From an uncultured Thermoanaerobaculum sp. (GTDB lineage: Bacteria; Acidobacteriota; Thermoanaerobaculia; Thermoanaerobaculales; Thermoanaerobaculaceae): DNA of 64,000 nucleotides. The notes under the pieces are model-generated. The model saw only the letters and a list, made by a program, of their open reading frames with translations, was not told the origin of the DNA and ran no database searches. Shown piece after piece: positions 19,831-59,321 of the stretch. Numbering within the stretch: position 1 is the stretch's first letter; every line of letters begins with the position of its first letter. The translations under genes and the position numbers were made by a program. Where the stretch lies: the NCBI GenBank assembly GCA_937934115.1, contig CALHAH010000011.1, forward strand, positions 15,948 through 79,947, written 5' to 3'.

Positions 19831-20055
19831 TTAGGCGGAGGGGCTCTCCTCCAGGTCGTTGGGGATCCCCAGTCGCTGGCACGCCGCGTCGTACATCTGG
19901 CGAGCCGCCTTTTGGGCGGCCTGGAGCTCAGCGATGCGCTGCTTGACCCGCTGCAGCTCTTCCTGGATTTGGTTTTCCAGGTCGTGAATCTCTTGCTTCG
20001 TTACCTTAAGGGTTTCCTCGTAAAACTTCCGCTGTTGTTCAGTCAGTACGGCCAT
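19831..20055 (-). CDS. hypothetical 74-aa coiled-coil protein
   Basis: Heptad-like sequence (QEIHDLENQIQEELQRVKQRIAELQAAQKAARQ). It sits 16 nt downstream of the kinase gene. No family recognised. Confidence 0.5.
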   Translation of the reverse strand: MAVLTEQQRKFYEETLKVTKQEIHDLENQIQEELQRVKQRIAELQAAQKAARQMYDAACQRLGIPNDLEESPSA

Positions 20056-20070: not shown

Positions 20071-22827
20071 CTATTGGGGCTTGAACGGTATGGGTTGGGT
20101 GAACCAGGTCTTAACCTTAACCCCATCCTTGGTTGCTGGTTTGTAACGCCAGTTCTTAACGGCCGCTACTGCTGCGGCATCCAAGCCCAGATCGGGTTTG
20201 ACGCCTCGCAGTACCTTAACATCGCGCACCACCCCGTTTTCATCCACCAGCACGCTTAAGATCACGGTCCCTCCCTGCCGCTGCCGCGCTGCCAACGGTG
20301 GGTAGGCGGGTTTGGGCATAACGATCGGCTCAGGCCAGACGTCAGGAAGGTCCACCAAATCGCCTTCTTTCACCGCTGGGGCCGCGGTTTGCGCCACGGC
20401 CGGTGCCGGCGTAGGCGTGGGCCGCGGTGGCGTGGTGGGCTCCGGTACGGGTGTGGGTTCGGGCTCCGCAGGGGCCGGGACCGGGGGCGTGACCAAAGCT
20501 GCGGCTGGGGTTGGCGTAGGCAGCGGGCTAGTGGGTGCGGGGCTAGGAACTACGGCAGGGGCTGGTGCGAGGGTGGGGCGAACGGCAACCGTGGGAACCT
20601 CTGCTGCCGGTGGAGGTGTGGGCTGCGGAGCAGGTGGCGCTGCACGTTCCTCTAATGGGGGGGTAAGTTCCGCTTCCGGCTTGGGGATTTCCACCTGCGC
20701 CACTTGCTGGGGTCCAGGGCTAGATTCGGGCACGGGCGACGGGGCAGGTTTACCCCGGGTGAAGAAGAGGTACGCAGCTGCCGCTGCCAACAACGCCGCC
20801 GGTACGGCCCATACCATGGGGGAAGGCCCACGACGGGCGGGAAGTTCCTGCTCCAGTTCTGGGATAGGGGTGGGTGGCACCGGCACGGGCGCCGGTTTTG
20901 GTTCAGGTGCTGCAGGCCGTTGGGGTTCCGGGGGTTTAGGCGGCGGTGGGCTTACCGGCAGCTTCACCGTGGCGGCGGTCTCGGTCGCTAGTGCGGGCCG
21001 CTCTCGTCCCTGCAAGTCACAGAGGAAGGCGCCAAGGGAAGCGGCACTGGGTGCTGGCTCGAAGGCACGCATGGCAGCTTCCAAATCTTTGGCCATGTCC
21101 GCCGCCGACTGGTACCGCTCTTCCCGTTTTTCCTTCAGGGCTTTCAGAAGGATCTGTTCTACCTCGGAGGGGATGGTGGGGTCCACCTCCCGCGGTGGCA
21201 CCAGCTTGGGGCTTCTCACTTGCTCGAGGATGGAAAGCTCAGAGTCGCCGGAGAAGGCCTTGCGTCCCACGATCATTTCGTAAAGCACGAGGCCCAAAGA
21301 GAAGATGTCGGAGCGATGATCTAAATCTTTCCCCCAAGCCTGCTCTGGTGACATGTATTGCAGCTTGCCCTTGAGGGCTCCGGCGCGGGTATGGGAAGCC
21401 TTGGAGGCCGCTTTGGCGATGCCAAAATCGCAAAGCTTGATTTCTCCTTCATAGGAAATCAGCACGTTTTGCGGGGACACGTCGCGATGCACCAAGGCCA
21501 TGGCTTGGCCCTTGAAGTCGCGTTTGCGGTGCGCGTAATCCAAAGCGTCGGCCAGCCGTGCCCCCACGTAAAGCGAAAGGGGCAGGGGGAAGCGTTCACC
21601 TTTGGCTTGGAGCTTGTTAAGGATAGAGCGCAGGTCGAGGCCGTCAATGTACTCCATGGCGATGTAGTACGAGCGCTCGATCTTGCCCAGGTCATAAATG
21701 TGGATGATGTTGGGGTGCTGGAGCTGGGCGGCGAGCTTGGCCTCGTCAATGAACATGGTTACGAACTCGTCGTTATCGGTGAGATGGGGAAGGATGCGCT
21801 TAATGGCTACGATCTTTTGAAAGCCCTCCAACCCCTTCATGCGGGCCTTGTAAACCTCCGCCATGCCGCCGGTGGCGATGTGCTCGATGAGCTCGTATTG
21901 GCCAAAGGCGGTGCCGGTGGCGGCAGCAGGCTGCGCAGCAGCTGGTTTAGGTGGCTCGGGACGTGCCGCTTTCGGCTCGGCCGGTGCCGGCGGCGTAGGT
22001 TTTGTTGGTGGCTGCGGCTTGGGCTTTACGGGAACTTCCAACCCGGAGAGGGTTTGCGAGAGCAGCTCGTCCACCCGCTTGGCGCCGGTGTCCTCAGCGG
22101 GTTTTGGCCTTTTTTCTTCGACCTTGAGCACATCGGCAATGGTGGCTTCCAAGACCCGCTCCACGTCTTCCACCGCCCCCTTGGGAGCGGGTACTTGGCG
22201 GGGCGGGCTTGGGGGCTTTGCCGGTGCCGTGACAGCCGGCTGCGGCGGAACGGGTGTGGGAGGCTCCGGTTTTCTCGTGGGAGCCTTGGGTTCCACCCGA
22301 ATGCGCTGTGTGTCGGCGGGGCTTGGCGCTTCCTCTTCCTCGAGGAGGTCAGCGAAGAGCTCCTGGGAGGTCACCACACCTTTTTCACCGCCCTGCTGTT
22401 TTAGGGCCTCGAGGATTTCCACCTTGGTTTTTTCGGAAACGCTGGCGGCCCGTGCGCCGCTTTCCAGCCAGTGCTGCACGCAGTCCCTAAGCTGTTGGTC
22501 AGAAAAAGGCTTGGGGAGGATATCCTGAGCCCCAAGACGCTGGGCGTCACCGCGGGTGTCGCTGCCGTTATAGCCACTCATCAAGATGACAAAGGGTGTG
22601 CTGCGCAGGCCGGCGCGGGCTCGCAGTTGCGTAATGGCATCTTCCACCTTCACCCGTGGCAGTACGGAGGTGAGCAACACCAGCGAGGGCTCCACCTTGC
22701 TGCAGTGGGCAATAGCCGCGTCAAGGTCGGTGGCGGTGAGGAACTCCACGTTCAGAGGGGCCAGCGCAGCCGCATAACGGGCGGCGTTGCGGGGCTCGTA
22801 GTCAACCAGAAGGACTGTCGGTTTCAT
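20071..22827 (-). CDS. pseudo-receiver / Ser-Thr protein kinase / TM / TonB C-terminal domain fusion protein
   Basis: N-terminal CheY-like fold with LVLLTSVLP (Thr where the acceptor Asp should be) and conserved ILMSG and LPKPF. Kinase motifs [29 protein letters not shown] helix [19 protein letters not shown]. Three Pro-rich linkers. C-terminal TonB_C ([26 protein letters not shown]...NWRYKPA). Confidence 0.9.
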
Positions 22828-22861: not shown

Positions 22862-22891
22862 ATTGTCGCCCACGGGCGAGGCTTCCGTCAA
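22862..22891 (-). promoter_or_regulatory. sigma-70-like promoter candidate for the kinase-accD-glyA operon
   Basis: Minus strand reads TTGACG (22891-22886), 18 nt spacer, GACAAT (22867-22862). GAGGTGGG lies before the ATG at 22827. Confidence 0.3.
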
Positions 22892-24181: not shown

Positions 24182-24316
24182 CGTTTCCCCATTCCGCGAC
24201 TCGTTGACTCTCCTTTCCGTCCTATGCTAGCCTCACCCAGCCGGAAAAGGGGTACCTTGTCCGGCAAAACCAACGGAGTTGGCGGCAGGCCAGTCCGGGA
24301 AAGTGAGGAGGCGAAC

Positions 24317-24973
24317 GTGTTAGGCGATCTCGTAACGTACTTCCAGCAGGGTGGCATCATGATGTGGCCGCTTTTAGCGTTCTCAATCTTGACGGCCACG
24401 TTTTTAGTGGAGCGCGGTTTGGCGTTGCGGAAGGCCAAGGTCAACGTCAACGAATTCCTTTCTAAAGTGCGGAAGGCGCTCCTGGTTAACCGCGATGTGC
24501 GCGGGGCAATGAAGGTGTGCGAGGAGTACCAGGGTCCGGTGGCTTCTGTGGTGAAAGCGGCGCTGGCGCGCTACGGTCATCCTCGTGAGGACATTGAAAA
24601 GAACATCGAGTCGGCAGCAGTTTTTGAGAGCGCGCGGTTGGAGCGGGGGTTGATGGTACTGGCTACTTCCGCCAACATTTCCCCCATGATGGGCTTTTTG
24701 GGCACGGTCACCGGCATGATCAAGTCCTTCGCCACCTTGGCTCAGGCGGGTCTTTCCAACCCTGGTGCGGTGGCCGCAGGTATTTCTGAAGCCCTCATTA
24801 CCACGGCTACGGGTTTGTTCATTGCCATCCCTGCCCAGCTGGGTTACAACTATTACATGAACCGTATCAACCGGTTCATGCGGGATATCGAGGTGGCCTC
24901 CAATATGTTGATGGACACCTTTATTGAAATGGATAGCGAGCGGTACGGACAGGGAGGCAGCGCGGAGGCGTAA
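24317..24973 (+). CDS. exbB: MotA/TolQ/ExbB proton channel protein
   Basis: GGIMMWPLLAFSI..., GFLGTVTGMIKSF and ALITTATGLFIAIPA. GAGGAGG lies 6 nt before GTG 24317. Confidence 0.9.
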   Translation: MLGDLVTYFQQGGIMMWPLLAFSILTATFLVERGLALRKAKVNVNEFLSKVRKALLVNRDVRGAMKVCEEYQGPVASVVKAALARYGHPREDIEKNIESAAVFESARLERGLMVLATSANISPMMGFLGTVTGMIKSFATLAQAGLSNPGAVAAGISEALITTATGLFIAIPAQLGYNYYMNRINRFMRDIEVASNMLMDTFIEMDSERYGQGGSAEA

Positions 24974-24974
24974 G

Positions 24975-25412
24975 ATGATTCGAATACGGCGAGTGGGCCG
25001 TAAAGCAGACGCTTACATCCCCACCGCGACCATGGCGGATATCGTGTTCCTGTTGATCATCTTTTTCATCGTGACGTACAACATCGAGGTGGACAAGGCA
25101 CGTGTTCAGCTGCCGCGGACGACCGTGCGCACGGACGTGCCCCGTGACGCGGCGTATGTTTCGGTGGATACCGAGGGTGTCATTCGGGTGTCGGGTGGCA
25201 AGGAAACCTCCGTGCCTGTGGCAACGGTGGAAGAAGTACAAACCTTTGCCCAAAACGTGGTGGCCCAAGCTCCAGACAAGGCGTTTGTGGTGAAGGCTGA
25301 CAAGGGCACCCGTTATCAAACCATCGATAGGGTTCTCGATGCCTTGAAACAGGCGCGGGTGCGAACGATCTTTCTTCTCTCCGAGCAGCGCACGGTCTCG
25401 GATCAGAGCTGA
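24975..25412 (+). CDS. exbD: ExbD/TolR family protein (paralog 1)
   Basis: Single TM (MADIVFLLIIFFIVT) plus a periplasmic ExbD fold. The ATG lies 1 nt after the exbB stop. Confidence 0.9.
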   Translation: MIRIRRVGRKADAYIPTATMADIVFLLIIFFIVTYNIEVDKARVQLPRTTVRTDVPRDAAYVSVDTEGVIRVSGGKETSVPVATVEEVQTFAQNVVAQAPDKAFVVKADKGTRYQTIDRVLDALKQARVRTIFLLSEQRTVSDQS

Positions 25413-25421
25413 GGGGGCGCC

Positions 25422-25901
25422 ATGAAACTTGAACGTAGGAAAGTGCCACCGGAAATCTTTACGGGCTCCATGGCCGATGTGACCTTCCTCCTCATCATCT
25501 ACTTCATGGTAACCATGGCCTTTTCCGCTACCAAGGGTTTGGATTTTGCTGTGCCCAAAGAGGAAACTACCCAGGTCCAGCTGGAGAGGGAAGAGGCGGT
25601 GGAGGTAAAGGTCACGCCCCAGGGAACCTACCTTGTGGATGGTCGCCCGTTGGCTTTGTCTCAGTTTGCGGATTACCTTAAGGGCAAGATTGTGCCAGGG
25701 AAGCTGGTGGAAGGTAAGCCGGTCGTTGAAAAGCCCGTGATCTTGAGGCCGGATCCCCAAGCCCCCTATGGGGCCATGATGGACGCTTTTGACGAGCTAC
25801 GACAAGTAAAGGACAAGCTGGGCTTGGCCCGGGACCTGAACATTTCGCTGCCCACCCAGCGGGAAATTGAGAATCTGTGGGGCGCTCTGGGAGCTCTGTA
25901 G
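25422..25901 (+). CDS. exbD: ExbD/TolR family protein (paralog 2)
   Basis: MADVTFLLIIYFMVT TM helix; ExbD-like C-terminal domain. Confidence 0.88.
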   Translation: MKLERRKVPPEIFTGSMADVTFLLIIYFMVTMAFSATKGLDFAVPKEETTQVQLEREEAVEVKVTPQGTYLVDGRPLALSQFADYLKGKIVPGKLVEGKPVVEKPVILRPDPQAPYGAMMDAFDELRQVKDKLGLARDLNISLPTQREIENLWGALGAL

Positions 25902-25944
25902 CCTTGCGGCGGCCATGGCCCTACAATAAAGACGGAGGTGAGGT

Positions 25945-26649
25945 ATGAGCACCAATGAGCGCCAAGACCAAGACCTGATGTTGCAAGAGCTGAGTCTCCT
26001 GGCGCTGGAGTACGAGGAAGATCGGCGCACGCTGCGAATTGCAACCGCTATTGCCATTGTTTTCCATATCGTCCTCTTCGTCATGCGGTTCCCCGAGTGG
26101 GCCACGCGAACCGCCGAGGCGCAGCAAAATAAACCCAAGATCTTCGTGGTGCAACAGCCGCGTTTCAAGCCGCCAGAAGTGCAAAAGCAGCAAGAAATCC
26201 TCAAACCCCGGACCGTACGTGTACCCATTCCCGACCCCACCCCAGACGAGCCTGAACCGGTACGCCAGTACGAGCCCGAAGAGGACATTCCGCACACTCC
26301 GTTGCCGCCCGAGGCAGTGTTCGGGGACATCGGCCCGCCGCCGGCTCCCGAAGATGAGGGGCCAATCCGCGTGGGTGGTCAGCTTAAGGAGCCGCGTCGG
26401 ATTAAACACGTGGATCCCGTTTATCCCGAAATCGCCCGCAGGGCTAAGGTCCAAGGACCGGTAATCCTTGAGGTGGTTTTGAGTAAGGACGGCAGCCCCA
26501 AGAGCGTGAAGGTTCTCCGTGGGCTTTCCATGGGACTCACCGAAGCGGCGGTGGAAGCGGTTAAGCAGTGGCGATGGGAGCCCTCGACGCTTAACGGGAG
26601 GCCAGTGGAGGTTATCATCGTGGTGACCGTGAACTTCCGGCTCCAGTAA
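25945..26649 (+). CDS. tonB: energy transducer TonB/TolA-like protein
   Basis: TM helix with a conserved His (AIAIVFHIVLFV), a Pro/Glu/Lys-rich spacer, and TonB_C (VYPEIARRAKVQGPVILEVVL...QWRWEPS). Confidence 0.85.
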   Translation: MSTNERQDQDLMLQELSLLALEYEEDRRTLRIATAIAIVFHIVLFVMRFPEWATRTAEAQQNKPKIFVVQQPRFKPPEVQKQQEILKPRTVRVPIPDPTPDEPEPVRQYEPEEDIPHTPLPPEAVFGDIGPPPAPEDEGPIRVGGQLKEPRRIKHVDPVYPEIARRAKVQGPVILEVVLSKDGSPKSVKVLRGLSMGLTEAAVEAVKQWRWEPSTLNGRPVEVIIVVTVNFRLQ

Positions 26650-26658
26650 GGAAGCGGC

Positions 26659-27480
26659 ATGGCACTTCAAGGTTCCCTTGCTGACCTTGCCCTTCCCGAC
26701 GTGATCCAGTTGGTGTCGGTGTCGGGTAAAACAGGAGTGTTCACGCTTTCGGGCGACGGGGGAATCGTCGGCAAGATCTTCTTGAAGGATGGTCAAATCG
26801 TAGATGCGTATGTGGGTAACCTGCGCGGGGAAAACGCCGTGTACGAAATGGCCATTTGGCAACGCGGGCAGTTCATCTTTACCCCGCAGGTGGAGTCGGA
26901 CCAGGTAACCATCACCAAATCCAACGCGTCGTTGATGATGGAAGCGGCACGGCGGTTGGATGAGTGGCGAGTTTTGCAAAAGCGCATCCCCTCCCTAGAC
27001 CTCATTCCGTATTTTTTGCCTCGGGAACCAGGCCATGATCAGGTTACCCTTTCCCCCCAGGAGTGGGTGGTGGTTACCAAAATCGATGGTCAGCGCTCGA
27101 TCCGTCAGCTGGAGGAGGTAACTAAGCTTTCGGCTTTCGATTTGTGCAAGACTCTTTTTGGCCTTATCACCTCGGGCCTCATTGGTCTGCGTTCGCCTGG
27201 GGAAGAAGCACCGCAGGGTGCACCGGCCGGACCTTCGGTAACCACCCTTTTGGCGCTTACCGAAAACATTCGCAAGGTTGCTGAGGAGATCGTTGGTCCT
27301 GGGGGGGCTATCACCGTGGAAAAGCAGTACCGACTGGCCCGCACCGAAATTGAACGCGGCAAGGGCATGAGTGCCGTGCAAAGCATGGTGGACCAGCTGG
27401 CGAGGGCGATTTCGCTGCTCAAAGGCGGGGAAGAAGCGGGAGAGTTTCTCCGGCGAGTAACCCCGTTGGTTCAGTTGTAA
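26659..27480 (+). CDS. DUF4388 (PATAN-like) domain protein, cytoplasmic
   Basis: LQGSLADLALPDVIQLVSVSGKTGVFTL...IFLKDGQIVDA is the DUF4388 N-terminal pattern as I remember it. No signal peptide or TM helix. Confidence 0.7.
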   Translation: MALQGSLADLALPDVIQLVSVSGKTGVFTLSGDGGIVGKIFLKDGQIVDAYVGNLRGENAVYEMAIWQRGQFIFTPQVESDQVTITKSNASLMMEAARRLDEWRVLQKRIPSLDLIPYFLPREPGHDQVTLSPQEWVVVTKIDGQRSIRQLEEVTKLSAFDLCKTLFGLITSGLIGLRSPGEEAPQGAPAGPSVTTLLALTENIRKVAEEIVGPGGAITVEKQYRLARTEIERGKGMSAVQSMVDQLARAISLLKGGEEAGEFLRRVTPLVQL

Positions 27481-33453: not shown

Positions 33454-34039
33454 CCGTGGCTAACGGCTGGCCGGTGAGCTTTCGGTAAGCTTCCTCTACC
33501 TTCCGCACGAATGCTTGCGTCTCTCGGTAAGGGGGAATGCCGCCGCTTTTGTACACCGCCCCTGGACCGGCATTGTACGCAGCCAAAACCAGCTCTACGT
33601 CGCCGCCAAAGTCCTGGAAAAGTAACCGTAAATACCGGCAACCTGCTCTTAAATTTGCCTCCGGCTCATGGTGCGAGGCGACCCCCACCAGCGTGGCGGT
33701 TTCGGGGAGCACCTGCATGAGCCCCACGGCGCCTTTTTCCGAGTAGGCTTTCGGATTAAAGCCCGACTCCACCTGCACTATGGCCGCCACCAACGCTGGG
33801 TCTACGCCCTCGGCAAGAGCTGCGTGCCGGATTTCTTCGGGGATGCTGTGCTGCTTTTGCGCGGTAACGATCTCGTACCAACGTTCCTCGCCTTCAACAC
33901 CGGGGTCCAGGGAAGCCACGCTCACACCGAACCTCGCTACAGCGCCGGCCAGCACAAACCCACAGGCGGCCGCCGCATAGGCCAACCCCAGTTCCCGAAA
34001 AGAGGTGGCGAAGGCCACATTAGCTCGATGGCTGCGCAA
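33428..34039 (-). CDS. lytic transglycosylase (SLT domain)
   Basis: [25 protein letters not shown] ... [10 protein letters not shown]. Confidence 0.85.
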
Positions 34040-34265
34040 ACCTCTTCAGCTTTACACGCAGCCTGTTGCGGTGCACTTGGAGCGCCGCCGCCCGCTGGAT
34101 GCTTCCACCGCAGCGTTGCACGGCAGCCTCCACGTAGCGCACCTCAAAGGTCCACACCGCCTCCTCCAAGCTCAGAGAACGATCCAACATCCCTTGAAAA
34201 AGCACGTTTAAGGCCTGAGCCATCTCCGCAAGGGATGGGGAGCGCACGGGCTCGGTTGCCATCAC
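34020..34265 (-). CDS. Fis-type helix-turn-helix protein
   Basis: 81 aa. The C-terminal [24 protein letters not shown] resembles HTH_8/Fis. Confidence 0.55.
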   Translation of the reverse strand: MMATEPVRSPSLAEMAQALNVLFQGMLDRSLSLEEAVWTFEVRYVEAAVQRCGGSIQRAAALQVHRNRLRVKLKRFAQPSS

Positions 34266-35401
34266 CGCACTTCCACCCTATCACCCACGTACACCGGCCC
34301 ATCCGTGGCCAAGAGTTTCACCGTTGCCCAATGGGGGCCGGCGGTGAGGGCTGCCCCCTGACCCAAAACAATCCGCGGCAGCCCGGGGACTGGGTTTTCG
34401 CGGTAAATGGTCAAAAAGGTCCCAGGTTGAACCTCGTCCGCCTCGCCCAAATCCACCACCACCAGATGGTCTTGTCCCAGGCTCTCCACGTTGTCCTTGG
34501 AGTACACGATAAAGCCCCGTGCCTTGCCGGATGCGGCGTCACAGCGGGTAGCTGCCGCGGTCTTGGGGGCCATAGGGATGGGGATGGCCTCAAAAGGCTT
34601 GAGCTTGGCACCCAAAGGAATAGCATCGCAAGAAGCCATGATTTCCGCCGTGGCGGAGTGTTCCTGGGTGCAAATGACCCGCAGGTGTCCCAGGTAGCGC
34701 ACCACCCGCCCCAGCTTGGCGCCTGTGGTGGGGTGCCTGACGACGCGATCCGGGCTCACCACGAAGAACTCATCGCCGGCCTTGATACCTTCGGCCTCAC
34801 CGCCGTTAATGAAGACGATATCGCCAGTGGCGAAGCGCGCCTGATAGCCAATTCTTTCCGCCGAAACGATGCTCAAGGGCAAAGCCTCGCCCTCCGTGTC
34901 CAGGTACACGAAGCAGTGAATATCATCCTCCGAGCCCAGGGGCACCAACTCCTCTCCCCCAGTTTCCCTGGCTTCCCACCCCAAAGCTGGCAGGGCCACA
35001 GGAGCAGCGGGGACTTCGGTCTCTGGCGCAGGAACCGCCGCCTCCCCAGCGGGCGTGGGCGCTTCCACCGCCTTCACCCCTACCACCAAGGGGTCCCCCG
35101 GGTAAATCCAGTGGGCATCGCGAATGTATTGGTTTTGCTCCCAAAGCTGCGGCCACAGGTAAGGGTTTCCCAGGAACTTCTGCGCTAAGGCCCACAGGGT
35201 GTCCCCCGGCTGAATGATGTACACCTGAGCGTCGGGAGGAAACTCCTGGGGTGGCTGATACGGCGTCCAGTGGTCCCCAACCTTGTGCAGCGGCTGGGGT
35301 GGTGGCCCGCTTTGCTTTTGGGCCATGAGGTAGCCAGGGAACAACAACACCACAAGTACCCATGCGGTTATGCGACCCATAACTGGCTTTTCCTCCCTCA
35401 T
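34262..35401 (-). CDS. LysM domain-containing exported protein
   Basis: Signal peptide (ITAWVLVVLLFPGYLMAQ). LysM motif YIIQPGDTLWALAQKFLGNPYLWPQLWEQN. Confidence 0.8.
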   Translation of the reverse strand: MREEKPVMGRITAWVLVVLLFPGYLMAQKQSGPPPQPLHKVGDHWTPYQPPQEFPPDAQVYIIQPGDTLWALAQKFLGNPYLWPQLWEQNQYIRDAHWIYPGDPLVVGVKAVEAPTPAGEAAVPAPETEVPAAPVALPALGWEARETGGEELVPLGSEDDIHCFVYLDTEGEALPLSIVSAERIGYQARFATGDIVFINGGEAEGIKAGDEFFVVSPDRVVRHPTTGAKLGRVVRYLGHLRVICTQEHSATAEIMASCDAIPLGAKLKPFEAIPIPMAPKTAAATRCDAASGKARGFIVYSKDNVESLGQDHLVVVDLGEADEVQPGTFLTIYRENPVPGLPRIVLGQGAALTAGPHWATVKLLATDGPVYVGDRVEVR

Positions 35402-50856: not shown

Positions 50857-51978
50857 ATGCTCGCGTCTTCGCGGGTTTTGGTGGTGGAGGACGACGTGGC
50901 CCTGGCCGCAGCGGAAGTGGAGCTTCTGCGGGAGGGGCTGCCCGGGGCTCAGGTTACCGCCGTTCACGATGGCTTGCGGGCTTGGGAGGTGCTGGTAGCG
51001 GACGGTGCCGAGGTGGTGCTTTCCGATGTGGCGCTCCCTGGAATTGATGCTCTTGAGCTTTTGCGGCGTATCCGCGGGGATCATAACCTGGCGACCACGG
51101 CGGTGATCCTGGTGACGGGCGTTATCGCGCCAGAACAACTCTTTTCGCTTTTGGAAAACGGTGCCGATGATTGCCTGGTAAAACCCATCCGCGGCGAGGA
51201 ATTGGTGGCACGTGTGCGGGCAGCGCTGACGCGGGTGGGCCGGCAGCGGCAGTTGGCCGCAAGGGCCCGCGAGCTGGAAGAAAAGTACGCCCGCGCCAGC
51301 GAGTTTTTGTCTTGGGTGTCCCACGAGATCCGCACCCCCCTTTCCGGCCTTATGTCGGCAGCCCACGTACTCAAGCGCTATGGAAGGCAAAGGCCAGAAG
51401 AGGTGGAACGTTTTGCCGAGGTGATTTACCGGGAAGGGCAAAGGCTTACCCGTCTTATCAACAACCTTTTGGACCTCGCCAAAATCGAGGCGGGCGAGGT
51501 GGAATGGCACGTGCAAGAGGTTCCCCTCTGCGAGCTTTTGCTGCACGTGCAGGAGGTTTTCCGCGCCCTCTGCGCTGATCGCTCGCTGCGCTTGCAGCTG
51601 GTGCCTTGTCCTGGGGCCTTTTTGCGGGTAGACGCCGACAAGCTTTCACAGGTGCTTACCAACTTGCTTTCCAACGCCATCAAGCATTCTCCTGAAGGCG
51701 GTATCGTGAGGCTCGCCTGTACTCGGTCCGAACGGTTCGTGCACATTGCCGTGGAAGACCAAGGTCCGGGGGTTCCCCCTGGGATGGAGGAGGTGATTTT
51801 CCAGCGCTTCCGTCAACTGGATCTCACCGACGAAAAGAGCGGCACCGGTTTGGGGCTAGCCATCTCACGGGAGATCGTGACGCGCTTGGGAGGGCGCATT
51901 TGGGTGGAGCGTTCCGCTTTGGGTGGTGCGCGGTTCGTCATTGAGCTGCCCTGTGTGGGCGATGCGGGGTCTTCCTAA
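50857..51978 (+). CDS. hybrid response regulator receiver-histidine kinase
   Basis: REC (VLVVEDD, VVLSDVALPG, LVKP). H-box SHEIRTPLSGL, N-box LLSNAIKHS, G1 DQGPGV, G2 GTGLGLAI. Confidence 0.9.
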   Translation: MLASSRVLVVEDDVALAAAEVELLREGLPGAQVTAVHDGLRAWEVLVADGAEVVLSDVALPGIDALELLRRIRGDHNLATTAVILVTGVIAPEQLFSLLENGADDCLVKPIRGEELVARVRAALTRVGRQRQLAARARELEEKYARASEFLSWVSHEIRTPLSGLMSAAHVLKRYGRQRPEEVERFAEVIYREGQRLTRLINNLLDLAKIEAGEVEWHVQEVPLCELLLHVQEVFRALCADRSLRLQLVPCPGAFLRVDADKLSQVLTNLLSNAIKHSPEGGIVRLACTRSERFVHIAVEDQGPGVPPGMEEVIFQRFRQLDLTDEKSGTGLGLAISREIVTRLGGRIWVERSALGGARFVIELPCVGDAGSS

Positions 51979-51979
51979 G

Positions 51980-54142
51980 ATGGTTCAGTTCGATAACCAG
52001 TACCGCCAAGTCAAACTTAAGATCGTGTACTACGGGCCTGCCCTGGGTGGGAAAACCACGTGCTTACAGTACATCCACCGGGTCACCGATCCGCAGCGCC
52101 GCACCCGCCTGTACACCTTGAACACCGCATCCGACCGCACGTTGTTTTTTGACCTCTTGGGGTTAGATTTAGGCCGGATTCGCGGTTACCGCTTAACCGT
52201 TCAGCTGTTCACGGTGCCCGGCCAAGTGCAGTACAACACCACGCGGCGGGCAGTGCTTTCCGGGGCTGACGGTGTGGTTTTCGTGGCCGATTCCCAGGCG
52301 GGTCAGGAAAAGGCCAACCTGGAGTCCCTGCAAAACCTTCAAGAAAACCTGCGAGCCAACGGCTTGGATCCCGAAACCATCCCGCTGGTTTTTCAGTACA
52401 ACAAGCGGGATTTGCCTAAGATCTTGTCGCGGGCAGACCTTGACCGCTTGCTCAACCCCAAGGGGTACCCGGTTTTCGAAACCGTGGCCACCACGGGACA
52501 AGGTGTGCTTGAGGCCTTTGCGGCCATTTGTGAGGCTACGGTGCTGTCGGTGGCTGATCGCTTGGGCATTACCGCTCAGGCGGATGCGCTCACGCGCTTG
52601 GTGGCCAACGTGCGTGCCGCCATGGCGCCTTTGATCCCAAAGAAACCCCCGGAAGTGGAAGCGCCGGTGGTGATTCGTACAGGCGGCGAAGGACAGCTGG
52701 GGCCGGAAGAGCTGGCGGCCGAGGCTGTGCGGGCTAACGCCGCCATGGCCGATCTCTCCGCACGGTTGGACCAGCTCTCCAAACAGCTTTCCCGACGGGT
52801 GGAGGAGTTACGGGCCCTCTTGGTGTTTTCTCAGGTGCTTAGCCAAGCGCGGGAGCCCGATGAGGTCACTACCGCTTTTTTCGAGCGGTTTTTGGTGGAC
52901 ATGAGGGTTACCGCCGGCACGTTGATCTTGGAAAACCCCAAGGGAGAGCTCGTGGAGGTTCTGCGCCGGGGCTTAGCCGCGGAGCCTTTGATGCGGCAAA
53001 GCCTGCAAGGAGAGGTGCCGGCGCGAGCGATTCTCCAGGGCCGGCAAGCGTTTCGCTTGGATGTAAGCGAGCTGGCACCGGGTCAAAGCCGGGAGCCTTG
53101 GATCGAAGAGGTCCGGGGCTTGGGGTTTGAGCACTTTTTGGCGGTGCCGCTGGTGGTGCAGGATCGGGCCTGGGGATTGGTAACCGCCTATGGAGAAGCG
53201 ACTCGCGGAGCTTTCCAAGACGAGGATTTAGAGCTGGCCGCCATCATGGGAGCGGTGGGGGCCGTGGCTATTGCCAACGCTCGCGCTTGGCATTCCCTGG
53301 AGCAAGTGAACCGCAATTTGGAAAGCTTGGTGGCGGCCCGCACCGGCGAGCTCCAGCAAGCGCTGACCAGGGCCGAGGCGCTGGCCAAAGAGCTTTCAGC
53401 CAAGAACCAAGAGCTGGAGGCCGCCTACCGCCGCCTGGCGGAACTGGATCGGCTCAAGGGCGAGTTGCTGCGACGGGTAGCCCACGAGTTCAACACCCCA
53501 GTGACGGCCATTCAAACCGCGGCGCGCATCCTCACCCGTTGGGATCAAATTCCCAAGGAAAAGGTGAACAACTTTGTGGGGATCGTGGTGGAAGAAGCCT
53601 CACGGCTTGGCGATCTCATTGCCTCGGCTTTGCAGGCGGCGGCGCTGAGCTTGCCCCAGGAAGTGGAGGAAAAGACCGCGGTGGCGGTGGCGGATCTCCT
53701 GCGGCAAGCGTTGGCGCCCGTCAAAGGAGAGGTGGCCGATCGGCAAATCAAGATGGCGGTGAAGGTGGCTTCTGGCTTGGAGAAGGTGGTGTGTTTTCCG
53801 CAGGCTTTGACGGCGGCGTTAACCGCACTTCTGAGAAACGCGGTGGAGTTCAACCAGCCCCAGGGGAGTGTCACGGTAACCGTCTTGCCAGTGCGCAAAG
53901 CAGGGCAAAGCTTTGTGGAGTTTCGGGTAGAGGACACCGGGGTGGGTATTTCCCCGGAGGACCTCCCCCAAGTTACCGAGCCCTTTTTCCAGGGAGGGAA
54001 CCTCCTCACCAGCAAACCCAAGGGCCTGGGGTTGGGGTTGGCGGTAGCCAAAAGGGTGGCGGAGCTGCACGGGGGGACGTTGGAGATCGTTTCGCAACCG
54101 GGGCAAGGAACCACGGTGAGCTTGCGGATAGCGGTGGGTTGA
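51980..54142 (+). CDS. MglA-like small GTPase domain fused to GAF-histidine kinase (720 aa)
   Basis: N-terminus: KIVYYGPALGGKTT (P-loop), SDRTLFFD (switch I), TVPGQ (switch II), VFVADSQ and QYNKRD (G4). A helical linker, a GAF-like module, H-box VAHEFNTPVTAI, N-box LLRNAVEFN, G1 DTGVGI and G2 GLGLGLAV follow. The ATG lies 1 nt after the upstream stop. Confidence 0.9.
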   Translation: MVQFDNQYRQVKLKIVYYGPALGGKTTCLQYIHRVTDPQRRTRLYTLNTASDRTLFFDLLGLDLGRIRGYRLTVQLFTVPGQVQYNTTRRAVLSGADGVVFVADSQAGQEKANLESLQNLQENLRANGLDPETIPLVFQYNKRDLPKILSRADLDRLLNPKGYPVFETVATTGQGVLEAFAAICEATVLSVADRLGITAQADALTRLVANVRAAMAPLIPKKPPEVEAPVVIRTGGEGQLGPEELAAEAVRANAAMADLSARLDQLSKQLSRRVEELRALLVFSQVLSQAREPDEVTTAFFERFLVDMRVTAGTLILENPKGELVEVLRRGLAAEPLMRQSLQGEVPARAILQGRQAFRLDVSELAPGQSREPWIEEVRGLGFEHFLAVPLVVQDRAWGLVTAYGEATRGAFQDEDLELAAIMGAVGAVAIANARAWHSLEQVNRNLESLVAARTGELQQALTRAEALAKELSAKNQELEAAYRRLAELDRLKGELLRRVAHEFNTPVTAIQTAARILTRWDQIPKEKVNNFVGIVVEEASRLGDLIASALQAAALSLPQEVEEKTAVAVADLLRQALAPVKGEVADRQIKMAVKVASGLEKVVCFPQALTAALTALLRNAVEFNQPQGSVTVTVLPVRKAGQSFVEFRVEDTGVGISPEDLPQVTEPFFQGGNLLTSKPKGLGLGLAVAKRVAELHGGTLEIVSQPGQGTTVSLRIAVG

Positions 54143-57188: not shown

Positions 57189-57488
57189 ATGGCCGCCGAA
57201 GCGTCCACCGAGGTGGAAATTTACGGGCGACGCTACCGTTTGCGGTCTACCCACGAGGGCAGCGATATCGAGAAGCTGGCCGCCTTTGTGGATCGCCGTA
57301 TGCGGCAGTTGGCGCAGCACCTACCGCAGGTGGATGCCGCGAAGCTTGCGGTTTTGGCGGCACTGAATATCGCGGAAGAGCTTTTCCGCGAGCAAGACAC
57401 GGATCCTGGTACGCGGACCGAGAAGATTCGGGAGCGTGTGGAAGGGTTGATTGCAAAGCTTGACGCTGTTTTGGGGGCCTCGCCATGA
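57189..57488 (+). CDS. zapA: cell division protein ZapA
   Basis: 99 aa. VEIYGRRYRLRS...FVDRRMRQLA...KLAVLAALNIAEELF is the ZapA pattern. Confidence 0.85.
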   Translation: MAAEASTEVEIYGRRYRLRSTHEGSDIEKLAAFVDRRMRQLAQHLPQVDAAKLAVLAALNIAEELFREQDTDPGTRTEKIRERVEGLIAKLDAVLGASP

Positions 57489-57504
57489 GGTTCCCGGCAG
57501 CGAG

Positions 57505-57690
57505 GTTGGAGGCCCCTGCGCGGCAAGTGATGAGCGAAACTATCCTTGGACCAACACCTATTTGCGGGGTGCCGGGTCCTGCCACCCCGATCGAGCCATG
57601 CGGCGAGTGACGGGTGGTGGGTAGGCACCCAACCTGTGGCGTACAGGTTCAAATAGGATTGCTCACACGGCCGTTGCGGGGGCCAAGCTT
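57505..57690 (+). ncRNA. structured RNA candidate, 6S RNA (ssrS)-like by position and long imperfect helix
   Basis: 264-nt non-coding gap after zapA. GGCCCCTGCGCGGC...GTGATGAGC...ATCC...CTATTTG (57511-57564) pairs with CAAATAG-GAT...GCTCACAC-GGCCGTTGCGGGGGCC (57650-57684). These arms enclose local hairpins at 57566-89, 57612-30 and 57631-49. Ends are approximate. Confidence 0.4.
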
Positions 57691-57752
57691 GAGCTGAAAA
57701 CCCCGCCCTCGCGTCCCCTCGCGTGCCTTTCGATCCTTGAAAGGGGGGCAAC

Positions 57753-59321
57753 ATGGGTTCCACAGTGGTGCTGGCTGTGGCGGGGATCCTCGTAGTCGTG
57801 GGTGCAGCACTCCTCGTGACTGCTCTGCGGTGGCGTGGGAAGGTGCAGCACAAGGAAAGGGAAGCCGAGGAGCTGGCGCGCAAGCTTCTCGCTGCCGCGG
57901 AACAAGAAGCCCAACAAATAATCCGCGACGCCCAAATTGCGGCTCGCGAGAAGCTGTTGGCAGCTCGAGCCGAGTTCGAGAGGGAAACCCGGCTGGTCCG
58001 TGATGACCTTGTTGGTCTCGAACGGCGCCTGAGCGACAAGCAGCGGGAGCTGGAGGAAAAAACCAGGGCTTTGGAGAGCAAGGAAGCGGAGCTCAAGTCC
58101 CTGGAAGAGCGCCTTTCCCTGCGAGAAACGCAAATTTCGTTACAGGAAGACGCGGTGGCGGCCATGGTGGCGGAGGCCCGCACGCAGCTGGAGCGGGTGG
58201 CCGGACTCACCTCCGAACAGGCCAAACAAGAGCTCATGAAGGCCATGGAAAACGAGGCCCGCATGGAGGCTGCCAGGCTCATCCGCCGCATTGAAGAAGA
58301 AGCGCAACAGGAGGCCAACCATCGGGCGCGTAAAATCATTGCTACGGCCATGCAACGAATTGCCGCCGAGTATGTGGCGGAAAGCACCGTGGCGGTGGTG
58401 GACCTGCCCAACGACGAAATGAAGGGGAGGATCATTGGCCGCGAAGGGAGAAACATTCGGGCTTTAGAAAACGCCACCGGTGTAGACCTTATCGTGGATG
58501 ACACCCCCGGAGCGGTGACGCTTTCCTGCTTTGATCCCTTGCGCCGGGAGGTGGCGCGTCTCGCCCTCGAACGCCTCATGGCCGACGGCCGCATCCACCC
58601 CGCTCGCATCGAGGAGGTGGTGGCCAAGGTCCAAGCCGAACTGGAGGAGAAGATCTTCCGGGATGGGGAAGCGGCGGCCATGGAGATGGGCTTCCCCGAC
58701 CTCCACCCCGAGATCATGAAGCTTTTGGGACGGCTGCAGTACCGTACCTCGTATGGGCAAAACATCCTCGCGCACTCCAAAGAAGTGGCGCGTATTGCCG
58801 CGCACCTGGCCGAGGAGCTGGGGGCAAAGGTGCACGTGGCCAAGCGAGCAGCGCTTCTGCACGATATCGGCAAGGCGGTGGATAGGGAAATGGAGGGCAC
58901 GCACCTCACTATCGGTCGTGACTTGCTCCGGCAGTATGGGGAAAGCGAAGAGGTCATCCACGCCATGGAGTGCCATCACGGTGACGTGGATCCCCGCACC
59001 TTGGAGGCCATCATCGTTACGGCCGCGGACGCTATTTCTGCCGCGCGGCCTGGCGCCCGAAGGGAAATTCTGGAAAGCTACCTCAAGCGCCTGGCGCAGC
59101 TAGAGGCCATTGCCGGGGATTTTGCTGGGGTGCAGAAGGCCTACGCCATTCAAGCGGGGCGGGAGCTGCGCATCATCGTGGAAGCAGAGCGCATTTCTGA
59201 CGATGAAGCAGTTTGGCTTTCGCGCGACATTGCCAAGCGCATTGAAAAGGAACTCAGCTACCCCGGGCAAATTAAGGTGACTGTTATCCGCGAAACCCGC
59301 GCCGTAGAATACGCCAAGTAA
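57753..59321 (+). CDS. rny: ribonuclease Y
   Basis: N-terminal TM helix, a long coiled coil, KH ([13 protein letters not shown]) and HD domain ([16 protein letters not shown]); 522 aa. Confidence 0.96.

What the first reader, a model, noticed from the sequence alone, without database searches (positions are those of the whole stretch)
20071..22827. Pseudo-receiver / Ser-Thr kinase / TM / periplasmic TonB C-terminal domain in one 918-aa protein
I aligned the N-terminus to CheY by hand. VLLVDYEP corresponds to [14 protein letters not shown] to VISDWNMP, ILMSG to LMVTA, and LPKPF to VVKPF. The fold-defining Ser and Lys are kept, but the phospho-acceptor Asp is a Thr and the acidic pair is degenerate (DY). 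A complete Hanks kinase follows ([18 protein letters not shown]). Then come one TM helix without the TonB-type His, long Pro/Ala/Thr spacers and a canonical TonB_C domain ([26 protein letters not shown]...NWRYKPA). A TonB_C domain normally contacts TonB boxes of outer-membrane transporters. Here it is wired to a cytoplasmic kinase rather than to ExbBD-type energy coupling. This suggests trans-envelope signalling in which outer-membrane receptor occupancy is reported to a kinase. Speculatively, the Thr at the acceptor position could itself be a substrate of the attached kinase.
Basis: partly seen in the sequence, partly recalled or inferred. Interest (0 to 1): 0.7.

Follow-up and report, generated by a model that had tools for sequence, protein, structure and literature searches.

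The report
Membrane kinase carrying a TonB end-domain
This Acidobacteria gene encodes a membrane-spanning Ser/Thr kinase with a phosphorylation-dead receiver domain inside the cell and a TonB-type domain that docks on outer-membrane transporters outside; it may report nutrient-transporter status to the cytoplasm, but no experiment has tested this.

Summary
Window 20071-22827, on the minus strand, is one 918-aa ORF. It contains a receiver domain (Pfam 41.6 bits), a Hanks kinase (138.8 bits), a single TM helix (671-691), a Pro-rich spacer and a TonB_C domain (74.8 bits).

- **Pseudo-receiver:** Profile alignment puts Thr53 where the phospho-Asp should be. In about 200 relatives this position is Thr or Ser in about 93% and never Asp or Glu. 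Ser84 and Lys106 are kept.
- **No TonB-type anchor:** The TM helix is not sequence-conserved and has no SHLS/His motif. The separate 234-aa TonB in the neighbouring exbB-exbD-exbD-tonB cluster does have the His.
- **Distribution:** The architecture is conserved across Acidobacteriota class Thermoanaerobaculia (over 110 protein clusters, 80 species genomes). Databases call it only "TonB family protein". I found no paper on it.

- A 74-aa coiled-coil gene follows the kinase in 76 of 76 loci.
- The catalytic-loop Lys is Ser (HRDVSPQN) in every member.
- 43 of 44 loci carry TonB-uptake genes within 6 kb (BtuFCD-type importer, ExbBD-TonB or a TBDT).

My best reading is an unenergised, envelope-spanning receptor kinase that reads TonB boxes. 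This is plausible but unproven. I class it as a new variant of a known kind.

The parts
22468..22827 (-). Pseudo-receiver domain (residues 1-120). It has the (βα)5 fold. Thr53 replaces the phospho-Asp and D9-Y10 replaces the acidic pair. Ser84 and Lys106 are retained.
   Evidence: Pfam Response_reg 41.6 bits against cut-off 30.2. PleD alignment. AlphaFold2 pLDDT 95-98. Family conservation.
21916..22467 (-). Cytoplasmic linker 1 (residues 121-304). Helix α5 extends to about residue 145. The rest is a disordered Pro/Ala/Glu-rich stretch with three conserved short motifs: VTSxDLFGDLL (152-162), TQRI (173-176) and [14 protein letters not shown] (252-265). T153, F158 and T259 are invariant.
   Evidence: Conservation profile. 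AlphaFold2 pLDDT below 50 except for short helices at 154-162, 221-233 and 250-260.
21010..21915 (-). Hanks-type Ser/Thr kinase domain (residues 305-606). K343, E362, D449, N454, D467 (DFG) and SPE are invariant. The catalytic loop reads HRD(V/I)SPQN, so the canonical Lys is Ser451.
   Evidence: Pfam Pkinase 138.8 bits. PknB alignment E=8e-47. Foldseek top hits are PknB. Catalytic loop counts: 120 of 120 Ser in the family, against Lys in 115 of 116 non-family kinases of the comparison set; the one exception has no match to the loop pattern.
20818..21009 (-). Cytoplasmic juxtamembrane linker (residues 607-670), 30% Pro, predicted disordered.
20755..20817 (-). Single transmembrane helix (residues 671-691, [17 protein letters not shown]). 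It is flanked by Arg/Lys, has no His or SHLS motif, and is not sequence-conserved in the family.
   Evidence: It is the only 19-residue Kyte-Doolittle window above 1.6, and the family alignment shows the variability. AlphaFold2 helix 674-690.
20365..20754 (-). Periplasmic Pro/Ala/Thr-rich spacer (residues 692-821), predicted disordered or extended.
   Evidence: 35% Pro. pLDDT below 50.
20071..20364 (-). TonB_C domain (residues 822-918) plus the stop codon. The YP motif, the WRYxP aromatic cluster and the C-terminal β-strand are kept. [quoted passage not shown]
   Evidence: Pfam TonB_C 74.8 bits. NCBIfam tonB_Cterm 69.3 bits. PDB TonB hits. pLDDT 95-98. BLASTP against the 234-aa TonB.
19831..20055 (-). 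Co-transcribed 74-aa single-helix (coiled-coil) protein. A GGAGG Shine-Dalgarno sequence sits in the 15-nt gap after the kinase stop codon. T19, C59 and the block QKAARQMYDAACQRLGIPND are invariant. The protein has no TM helix. This gene is the invariant partner of the kinase gene.
   Evidence: Present in 76 of 76 loci with at least 400 bp downstream. 712 homologues, and every taxon name among the 120 listed is Acidobacteriota. AlphaFold2 helix 6-62, pLDDT 88.8. Weak but consistent likeness to the ZntR dimerisation helix.
22862..22891 (-). Promoter-like site (TTGACG-18-GACAAT) just upstream of the kinase ATG, in the divergent region shared with yebC.
   Evidence: Consensus scan only. Not evidence of function.
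24224..26649 (+). Context, not shown to be part of the system: exbB (24224-24973), exbD (24924-25412), exbD (25422-25901) and a canonical 234-aa TonB (25945-26649) with a His in its TM helix (VFHIVL). The cluster lies beyond the divergent yebC-ruvC genes.
   Evidence: Pfam and NCBIfam. TonB sequence. The cluster is adjacent to the kinase in only 20 of 53 loci.

Best explanation
This is an envelope-spanning receptor Ser/Thr kinase. The N-terminal 670 residues lie in the cytoplasm: pseudo-receiver, disordered linker, then a PknB-like kinase. One TM helix anchors the protein in the inner membrane. A Pro-rich spacer of about 130 residues carries a canonical TonB_C domain across the periplasm.

Inferred mechanism, none of it shown:
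1. The TonB_C domain docks by β-strand addition onto exposed TonB boxes, or TonB-box-like strands, of outer-membrane TonB-dependent transporters. It does so as TonB does, but without ExbBD/PMF coupling, because the TM helix lacks the motor-binding motif.
2. Docking, clustering or tethering changes the oligomeric state of the kinase and so its autophosphorylation.
3. The signal passes to cytoplasmic targets. The first candidates are the co-transcribed 74-aa coiled-coil protein, the conserved Thr residues of the linker, and the Thr/Ser that replaces the phospho-Asp in the protein's own receiver domain.

Shown here: the domain architecture, the topology logic, the pseudo-receiver status, family-wide conservation, the invariant partner gene, and the association with TonB-uptake genes. 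Inferred: the ligand of the TonB_C domain, kinase activity, the substrates and the output.
For: - **Domains and topology:**
- **The TonB_C domain is canonical.** It is 42% identical to the genome's own TonB C-terminal domain. The spacer is Pro-rich like that of TonB.
- **The TM helix is variable and lacks SHLS/His,** whereas the neighbouring TonB has the His. PMC12204202 states that the SHLS motif binds the motor.
- **Conservation.** The three-domain architecture is kept in every complete copy among 84 loci and in over 110 protein clusters at 37-100% identity. This argues for selection on the whole fusion.
- **Recurrence.** A kinase-TM-TonB_C layout arose at least twice. A second lineage has a canonical HRDxKPxN kinase, one TM helix and one to three TonB_C copies.
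- **Gene neighbourhood.**
  - A BtuFCD/heme/siderophore-type ABC importer follows directly in 43 of 63 loci.
  - exbB-exbD-exbD-tonB lies upstream in 20 of 53 loci.
  - A CarboxypepD_reg-type TonB-dependent transporter (TBDT) lies upstream in 10 of 53 loci.
  - At least one of the three is present in 43 of 44 loci with both flanks, across three different arrangements.
- **Catalytic residues.** K343, E362, D449, N454 and D467 are invariant.
Against: - No binding, phosphorylation or expression data exist.
- The loci are related by descent, so the neighbourhood counts are not independent. No genome-wide background rate was computed.
- A hairpin followed by a T-run sits directly after the 74-aa gene in many loci. 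The importer is therefore probably a separate transcription unit.
- The window itself has no TBDT and no FecCD-type importer in 64 kb.
- The catalytic-loop Lys is replaced by Ser in all members. From general kinase knowledge this could lower or alter activity.
- The other neighbours are housekeeping genes (yebC, ruvC, accD, folC), which fits a general envelope or cell-cycle role equally well.
- TonB_C-like domains can also serve non-transport machines, for example GltJ.
Confidence: 0.4

Rival explanations
1. This is a housekeeping envelope or cell-cycle kinase, a functional analogue of PknB/StkP for a diderm cell. The TonB_C domain would serve only as an anchor or ruler. It would tether the kinase to an outer-membrane protein or to peptidoglycan and report envelope integrity, periplasm width or septation, not transporter occupancy.
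For: - The kinase domain is closest to PknB, StkP and PknA.
- The kinase domain is extremely conserved, with most positions over 90% identical.
- The gene is found class-wide, and every locus recovered shows one copy in the same genomic position. Copies per genome were not counted. Its neighbours are housekeeping genes: yebC, ruvC, accD, folC and rho.
- The partner is a small coiled-coil protein. From memory, this recalls GpsB and DivIVA, which are adaptors or substrates of Gram-positive Ser/Thr kinases.
- TonB_C-like domains occur in non-transport envelope machines such as GltJ.
Against: - TonB-uptake genes recur next to the kinase in three different arrangements. This reading does not predict that.
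- The domain is a canonical TonB_C with the YP and WRY motifs and is 42% identical to the genome's own TonB. It is not a divergent TolA or GltJ type. NCBIfam myxo_SS_tail scores 20 bits against a cut-off of 40, and tolA is not hit.
- No division or cell-wall genes are adjacent.
Confidence: 0.25
2. This is a true TonB paralogue, an energy transducer, with a very large regulatory N-terminal extension. It would still couple to ExbB/ExbD and energise particular transporters. The pseudo-receiver and kinase would regulate that activity or be regulated by it.
For: - The layout after the TM helix matches TonB: TM helix, Pro-rich spacer, TonB_C.
- In the window and about 20 other loci an exbB-exbD-exbD cluster lies within 2 kb.
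- Databases name the protein "TonB family protein".
Against: - The TM helix is not conserved in sequence and has no His or SHLS face.
- The adjacent ExbBD cluster carries its own TonB with the His.
- ExbBD is absent from the neighbourhood in 33 of 53 loci.
- About 670 cytoplasmic residues precede the TM helix, unlike any characterised TonB that I know of (from memory).
Confidence: 0.12
3. This is a decoy or brake on TonB-dependent uptake. The unenergised TonB_C domain would compete with TonB for TonB boxes and so throttle import. The kinase module would control the protein's abundance or conformation.
For: - The TonB_C domain is canonical and has no motor-binding motif.
- The gene sits next to uptake genes.
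Against: - Nothing supports this reading specifically.
- It does not explain the extreme conservation of a catalytically complete kinase.
- It does not explain the invariant 74-aa partner.
Confidence: 0.05

Closest known systems
Receptor-type Hanks (eukaryotic-like) Ser/Thr kinases of bacteria, e.g. M. tuberculosis PknB and S. pneumoniae StkP (kinase - one TM helix - extracytoplasmic PASTA sensor)
   Same: - The kinase domain is the best sequence and fold match: E=8e-47, TM-score up to 0.87 normalised to the PDB chain.
- The overall logic is the same: cytoplasmic kinase, a single TM helix, an extracytoplasmic binding domain.
   Different: - There are no PASTA repeats. NCBIfam PknB_PASTA_kin scores 295 bits against a cut-off of 450.
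- The outside domain is TonB_C, carried on a Pro-rich spacer long enough to span a periplasm.
- An N-terminal pseudo-receiver has been added.
- The catalytic-loop Lys is Ser.
- The host is a diderm acidobacterium.
TonB (ExbB-ExbD-TonB energy transducer)
   Same: - The C-terminal domain is canonical TonB_C at 74.8 bits. It hits solved TonB C-terminal domains and is 42% identical to the genome's own TonB C-terminal domain.
- The periplasmic spacer is Pro-rich.
- There is a single TM anchor.
   Different: - The TM helix lacks the SHLS/His motor-binding motif and is not conserved.
- About 670 cytoplasmic residues carrying two signalling domains precede the TM helix.
- Linkage to exbBD is inconsistent.
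Myxococcus xanthus GltJ/AgmX (gliding machinery)
   Same: The topology and logic are the same. PMC11135422 describes GltJ as a cytosolic regulatory region, a single TM helix, a flexible periplasmic region and a periplasmic TonB-C domain.
   Different: - The cytosolic modules of GltJ are not a kinase or a receiver domain.
- The NCBIfam AgmX/PglI tail model scores only 20.4 bits against a cut-off of 40.
- No gliding-motility genes were identified among the neighbours examined.
Cell-surface signalling through TonB-dependent transducers (FecA-FecR-FecI type)
   Same: If the best explanation holds, the task is the same. The occupancy of an outer-membrane TonB-dependent transporter is reported across the periplasm by a single-pass inner-membrane protein.
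   Different: - There is no FecR or anti-sigma domain (no Pfam hit).
- The periplasmic reader would be a TonB_C domain binding a TonB box, not a FecR C-terminal domain binding the transporter's N-terminal signalling domain.
- The output would be Ser/Thr phosphorylation, not release of an ECF sigma factor.
Pseudo-receiver (atypical, Asp-less) response-regulator domains
   Same: - The domain has the receiver (βα)5 fold but lacks the phospho-acceptor Asp and one residue of the acidic pair.
   Different: - A hydroxyl residue (Thr or Ser) is conserved at the acceptor position, and the Ser and Lys that bind the phosphoryl group are retained.
- The domain is fused to a Ser/Thr kinase in the same polypeptide.
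- I know of no characterised example with this combination (from memory, and from the empty literature searches).

Membership tests
Response regulator receiver domain (Pfam PF00072) | (βα)5 receiver fold, with a profile score above the curated cut-off | tested here: met
   41.6 bits against cut-off 30.2. AlphaFold2 gives five β-α units at pLDDT 95-98.
Response regulator receiver domain (Pfam PF00072) | Phospho-acceptor Asp at the C-terminal end of β3 | tested here: not met
   Thr53 aligns with PleD D53. In 120 protein clusters the position is T 99, S 14, A 5, K 1 and one gap. In 84 sequences (83 GTDB loci plus the window protein) it is T 39, S 39, A 3, C 2, G 1. It is never D or E.
Response regulator receiver domain (Pfam PF00072) | Acidic pair in the β1-α1 loop for Mg2+ binding | tested here: not met
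   The pair reads D9-Y10. Tyr is conserved in 110 of 120 clusters and in 78 of 84 sequences of the GTDB set.
Response regulator receiver domain (Pfam PF00072) | Conserved Thr/Ser at the end of β4 and Lys at the end of β5 | tested here: met
   Ser84 is kept in 115 of 120 clusters. Position 106 is Lys or Arg in 115 of 120.
Hanks-type Ser/Thr protein kinase (Pfam PF00069) | Profile match, plus the β3 Lys, αC Glu, HRD Asp, catalytic Asn, DFG and APE/SPE motifs | tested here: met
   138.8 bits. K343, E362, D449, N454, D467 and S493-P494-E495 are invariant in 114 sequences.
Hanks-type Ser/Thr protein kinase (Pfam PF00069) | Catalytic-loop Lys (HRDxKxxN) | tested here: not met
   The loop is HRD(V/I)SPQN in 120 of 120 family members. 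After setting aside three family members caught in the 119-sequence comparison set, 115 of the 116 non-family kinases have Lys and one has no match to the loop pattern. The effect on activity was not tested.
Hanks-type Ser/Thr protein kinase (Pfam PF00069) | Phosphotransfer activity | not testable with these tools
   This needs an in vitro assay.
TonB energy transducer | C-terminal TonB_C domain | tested here: met
   74.8 bits against 24.6 and 69.3 bits against 27.1. Hits to solved TonB C-terminal domains.
TonB energy transducer | Pro-rich spacer that spans the periplasm | tested here: met
   Residues 692-815 are 35% Pro and are predicted to be non-globular.
TonB energy transducer | N-terminal TM helix with the SHLS/His motif that binds ExbB/ExbD | tested here: not met
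   The TM helix is at residues 671-691, not at the N-terminus. It has no His or Ser-His-Leu-Ser pattern and varies across the family. The motif definition comes from PMC12204202.
TonB energy transducer | Functional or genetic coupling to exbB-exbD | tested here: inconclusive
   An ExbBD cluster lies nearby in the window and in 20 of 53 loci. That cluster has its own TonB, and it is absent near the kinase in the other loci.
PASTA kinase (PknB/Stk1 family, NCBIfam NF033483) | Equivalog score and extracellular PASTA repeats | tested here: not met
   295 bits against cut-off 450. There is no PASTA hit in Pfam.
GltJ/AgmX-type TonB-C proteins (NCBIfam NF033768 tail domain) | AgmX/PglI C-terminal domain score | tested here: not met
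   20.4 bits against cut-off 40.

The most novel reading that the evidence does not exclude
This would be a third route of signalling from the cell surface, alongside anti-sigma/ECF systems and two-component systems. A TonB_C domain with no motor would read exposed TonB boxes of ligand-loaded outer-membrane transporters. It would pass that occupancy across the periplasm to a Hanks kinase. The kinase would then phosphorylate the Thr or Ser that has replaced the phospho-Asp in its own receiver domain, so a receiver would be switched by O-phosphorylation. The kinase might also act on its invariant 74-aa partner, which resembles the ZntR dimerisation helix and might itself sense a metal through Cys59.
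Probability: 0.15. Interest if true: 0.85.

Novelty: new variant of a known kind. Interest (0 to 1): 0.6.

Why it matters
TonB-dependent transporters are known to signal inward through anti-sigma factors that bind a dedicated N-terminal extension. A TonB_C domain recognises the TonB box, which becomes exposed when a transporter is loaded. A TonB_C-kinase fusion would therefore be a generic "transporter occupied" sensor feeding Ser/Thr phosphorylation, a coupling not described so far.

The pseudo-receiver has a conserved Thr/Ser at the phospho-Asp site and keeps its phosphoryl-binding Ser and Lys. That gives a concrete, testable case for cross-wiring of Hanks-kinase and two-component chemistry within one polypeptide.

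The family is universal in a widespread but barely studied acidobacterial class that has one cultured member, Thermoanaerobaculum aquaticum. The hypothesis can therefore be tested with recombinant domains and with one culturable organism.

If instead the protein is an envelope or cell-cycle kinase, it would be a diderm counterpart of the PASTA kinases, which is also of interest.

Tried and rejected
- **Literature.** Six searches found nothing on this architecture. The terms covered TonB_C + Pkinase, TonB + Hanks-type, TonB C-terminal domain + threonine kinase, TonB + kinome, Thermoanaerobaculum + kinase, and the string HRDVSP. One search returned only general TonB papers. PMC12204202, on TonB/TolA evolution, does not mention kinases.
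- **The exbBD cluster as a functional partner.** The adjacency is not conserved (20 of 53 loci) and the cluster has its own His-bearing TonB. I treated it as context only.
- **A Tol-Pal reading of that cluster.** The tolQ and tolR models score well below their cut-offs, and no TolB or Pal is present. Rejected.
- **"REC-less" family members.** P0170 and P0255 carry the family-specific HRDVSPQN loop and start inside the kinase or the linker. They are most likely truncated gene calls, not a separate architecture.
- **Riboswitch or other RNA element near the importer.** There were no Rfam hits at gathering score in 8 loci. No Fur-box-like match with up to 5 mismatches was found downstream of the 74-aa gene.
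- **An operon joining the kinase to the ABC importer.** This is weakened by a hairpin followed by a T-run directly after the 74-aa gene in many loci.
- **The 74-aa protein as a MerR-family fragment.**
  - A profile search of PDB hits only ZntR (E=8.4e-5), and the NCBIfam ZntR model is the top hit in 34 of 34 members, but at about 20 bits against a cut-off of 143.
  - hhalign against CueR is insignificant.
  - I kept this as a lead, not a finding, because coiled-coil composition bias is possible.
- **Foldseek on the full-length model.** It returned only kinase domains and gave nothing on how the domains are arranged. The tools give no coordinates or PAE, so I could not check whether Thr53 faces the kinase active site.


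Full report
**1. What is in the sequence**

Window 20071-22827 holds a single 918-aa ORF that starts with ATG.

Pfam finds three domains above their curated cut-offs:
- Response_reg, residues 5-117, 41.6 bits against a cut-off of 30.2.
- Pkinase, residues 311-573, 138.8 bits.
- TonB_C, residues 838-916, 74.8 bits against a cut-off of 24.6.

NCBIfam agrees on the TonB C-terminal domain, at 69.3 bits against 27.1. Only one 19-residue window exceeds Kyte-Doolittle 1.6, at residues 671-691.

An AlphaFold2 model built on 114 homologues gives the following:
- A receiver-domain (βα)5 fold over residues 1-120, at pLDDT 95-98.
- A kinase domain over residues 310-606.
- A TM helix at 674-690.
- A TonB_C domain over residues 822-918, at pLDDT 95-98.
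- Three low-confidence Pro-rich linkers at 161-306, 620-669 and 691-814.

With one TM helix and an ATP-dependent kinase on the N-terminal side, the TonB_C domain must be periplasmic. This last step is inference.

**2. The receiver is a pseudo-receiver**

phmmer against PDB aligns PleD D53 with Thr53. The PleD acidic pair DD aligns with D9-Y10, the conserved Thr with Ser84 and the conserved Lys with Lys106. In the model Thr53, Ser84 and Lys106 sit at the C-terminal ends of β3, β4 and β5, where the active-site residues of a receiver lie.

The acceptor position is distributed as follows:

| Set | Thr | Ser | Ala | Cys | Gly | Lys | Asp/Glu |
|---|---|---|---|---|---|---|---|
| 120 protein clusters (one gap) | 99 | 14 | 5 | 0 | 0 | 1 | 0 |
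| 84 sequences (83 GTDB species genomes plus the window protein) | 39 | 39 | 3 | 2 | 1 | 0 | 0 |

Tyr10, Ser84 and Lys/Arg106 are conserved in both sets.

It does not prove it, and a few members lack a hydroxyl residue there.

**3. The kinase**

The domain aligns end to end with M. tuberculosis PknB (E=8e-47; Foldseek). K343, E362, D449, N454, the DFG motif and SPE are invariant in the family.

It reads HRD(V/I)SPQN in 120 of 120 members, so the Lys of HRDxKxxN is a Ser. The comparison set held 119 other kinases, mostly acidobacterial. Three of them turned out to be family members. Of the remaining 116, 115 have the Lys and one has no match to the loop pattern. I could not test what this does to activity.

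The kinase domain is unusually conserved, with most columns over 90% identical in a family whose overall identity falls to about 40-50%. The cytoplasmic linker carries three conserved short motifs with invariant T153, F158 and T259.

**4. The TonB part**

The C-terminal domain keeps the YP motif, the WRYxP aromatic cluster and the terminal β-strand. It hits solved TonB C-terminal domains. [quoted passage not shown]

That neighbouring TonB has a His in its TM helix (VFHIVL). The TM helix of the kinase has none, and its sequence is not conserved across the family. PMC12204202 describes the SHLS motif as the conserved way that TonB and TolA bind their motor. The claim "not wired to ExbBD" is therefore a reasonable inference, but it is untested.

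**5. It is a family, not a one-off**

The protein search returned more than 110 clusters at 90% identity that carry all three domains. They are 870-1064 aa long, and sources name them "TonB family protein" or "protein kinase" from Thermoanaerobaculaceae or Acidobacteriota MAGs.

A scan of one genome per GTDB species confirmed 575 matching stretches. The best 80 are all titled Acidobacteriota, mostly Thermoanaerobaculia. One exception is a 3.8-kb contig labelled Alphaproteobacteria that has the same synteny and is probably mis-binned.

Every complete copy in 84 loci has receiver + kinase + TonB_C. The 74-aa neighbour is 97% identical to a Thermoanaerobaculum aquaticum protein, so the window is from that genus or close to it.

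A second, unrelated kinase lineage also ends in TonB_C. It has a canonical HRDxKPxN kinase at the N-terminus, one TM helix at about residues 310-345, and one to three TonB_C copies. The kinase-TM-TonB_C combination therefore arose more than once.

**6. Neighbourhood**

The invariant partner is a 74-aa gene at window 19831-20055 on the minus strand.
- It lies 15 nt after the kinase stop codon and has a GGAGG Shine-Dalgarno sequence.
- It is present in 76 of 76 loci that have at least 400 bp of downstream DNA.
- About 90% of its columns are conserved, with T19 and C59 invariant.
- It is predicted to form one long helix.
- It has no Pfam family. Its best, weak likeness is to the dimerisation helix and first metal-binding Cys of ZntR.

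Beyond this pair, three arrangements recur:

| Arrangement | Frequency |
|---|---|
| BtuFCD/heme/siderophore-type ABC importer directly downstream | 43 of 63 loci |
| exbB-exbD-exbD-tonB-PatA_N-TPR cluster beyond divergent yebC-ruvC (the window's arrangement) | 20 of 53 loci |
| CarboxypepD_reg-type TonB-dependent transporter plus rho upstream, in a distant clade | 10 of 53 loci |

At least one of the three is present in 43 of 44 loci that have both flanks.

Caveats:
- The loci share ancestry, so the counts are not independent.
- No genome-wide background rate was computed.
- A hairpin followed by a T-run after the 74-aa gene in many loci suggests the importer is a separate transcription unit.
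- The window itself has no TBDT and no FecCD-type importer in 64 kb.

**7. Interpretation**

My best reading (confidence 0.4) is an envelope-spanning receptor kinase. Its unenergised TonB_C domain would dock on TonB boxes of outer-membrane transporters and so control a cytoplasmic Ser/Thr kinase. The output would go through the 74-aa partner, the linker Thr residues and possibly Thr53.

Rivals:
- A PknB-like housekeeping envelope or cell-cycle kinase that uses TonB_C only as an anchor (0.25).
- A true ExbBD-coupled TonB paralogue with a regulatory head (0.12).
- A TonB decoy (0.05).

**8. Comparison and novelty**

The protein works like a receptor-type Hanks kinase, and its topology parallels that of GltJ: a cytosolic module, a TM helix, a flexible region and a TonB-C domain (PMC11135422). 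It fails defining tests for four families:
- A functional receiver: it has no acceptor Asp.
- A TonB transducer: it has no SHLS TM helix at the N-terminus.
- A PASTA kinase: it scores below the equivalog cut-off.
- GltJ/AgmX: it scores below the model cut-off.

I found no paper on it. I rate it a new variant of a known kind, with interest 0.6. It is a real, conserved and uncharacterised architecture with a sharp, testable hypothesis, but there is no functional evidence yet.

Noticed in passing
window 19831-20055 (-): A 74-aa single-helix protein is co-transcribed with the kinase and follows it in 76 of 76 loci. C59 and T19 are invariant. Its only database likeness is to the dimerisation helix and first metal-binding Cys of the MerR-family regulator ZntR (PDB 1q08 E=8.4e-5; NCBIfam ZntR model is the top hit in 34 of 34 members, at about 20 bits against a cut-off of 143). 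It has no HTH. It could be a metal- or redox-sensing coiled coil, or the likeness could be coiled-coil composition bias.
   Followed up: partly
window 21475-21498 (-), residues 444-451 of the kinase: The catalytic loop reads HRDVSPQN. The canonical Lys of HRDxKxxN is Ser in all 120 family members, whereas 115 of 116 non-family kinases from the same search have the Lys. The effect on activity or specificity is unknown.
   Followed up: partly
window 26659-27480 (+) and homologues in L001-L084: A PatA_N/DUF4388 protein of about 273 aa is syntenic with the kinase region in most loci (PatA_N-ruvC-yebC, divergent from the kinase), even where the exbBD-tonB cluster is missing. Its function is unknown.
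   Followed up: no
window 51923-54142 (+): A 739-aa protein combines an N-terminal Arf/Ras-like small-GTPase domain with GAF, HisKA and HATPase_c. A GTPase fused to a histidine kinase is an unusual sensor architecture.
   Followed up: no
L037 and L050 (heptamers), L044 and L045 (palindromes): the 150 nt after the 74-aa gene: Short tandem or palindromic repeats lie between the terminator-like hairpin after the 74-aa gene and the ABC-importer gene. Examples are GGGATGA heptamer runs and their complement, and GTGGCACAGACACTC...GTCTGTGC palindromes. They could be operator sites or simple repeats.
   Followed up: no
window 33668-35188 (+) and 57233-58966 (-): Two long ORFs (506 aa and 577 aa) have no Pfam match at the thresholds used.
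   Followed up: no
proteins P0121-P0268: Many proteins in public metagenomes carry three to seven tandem TonB_C domains. They outscore single-domain TonBs when the kinase's TonB_C domain is the query. Their architecture and function were not examined.
   Followed up: no
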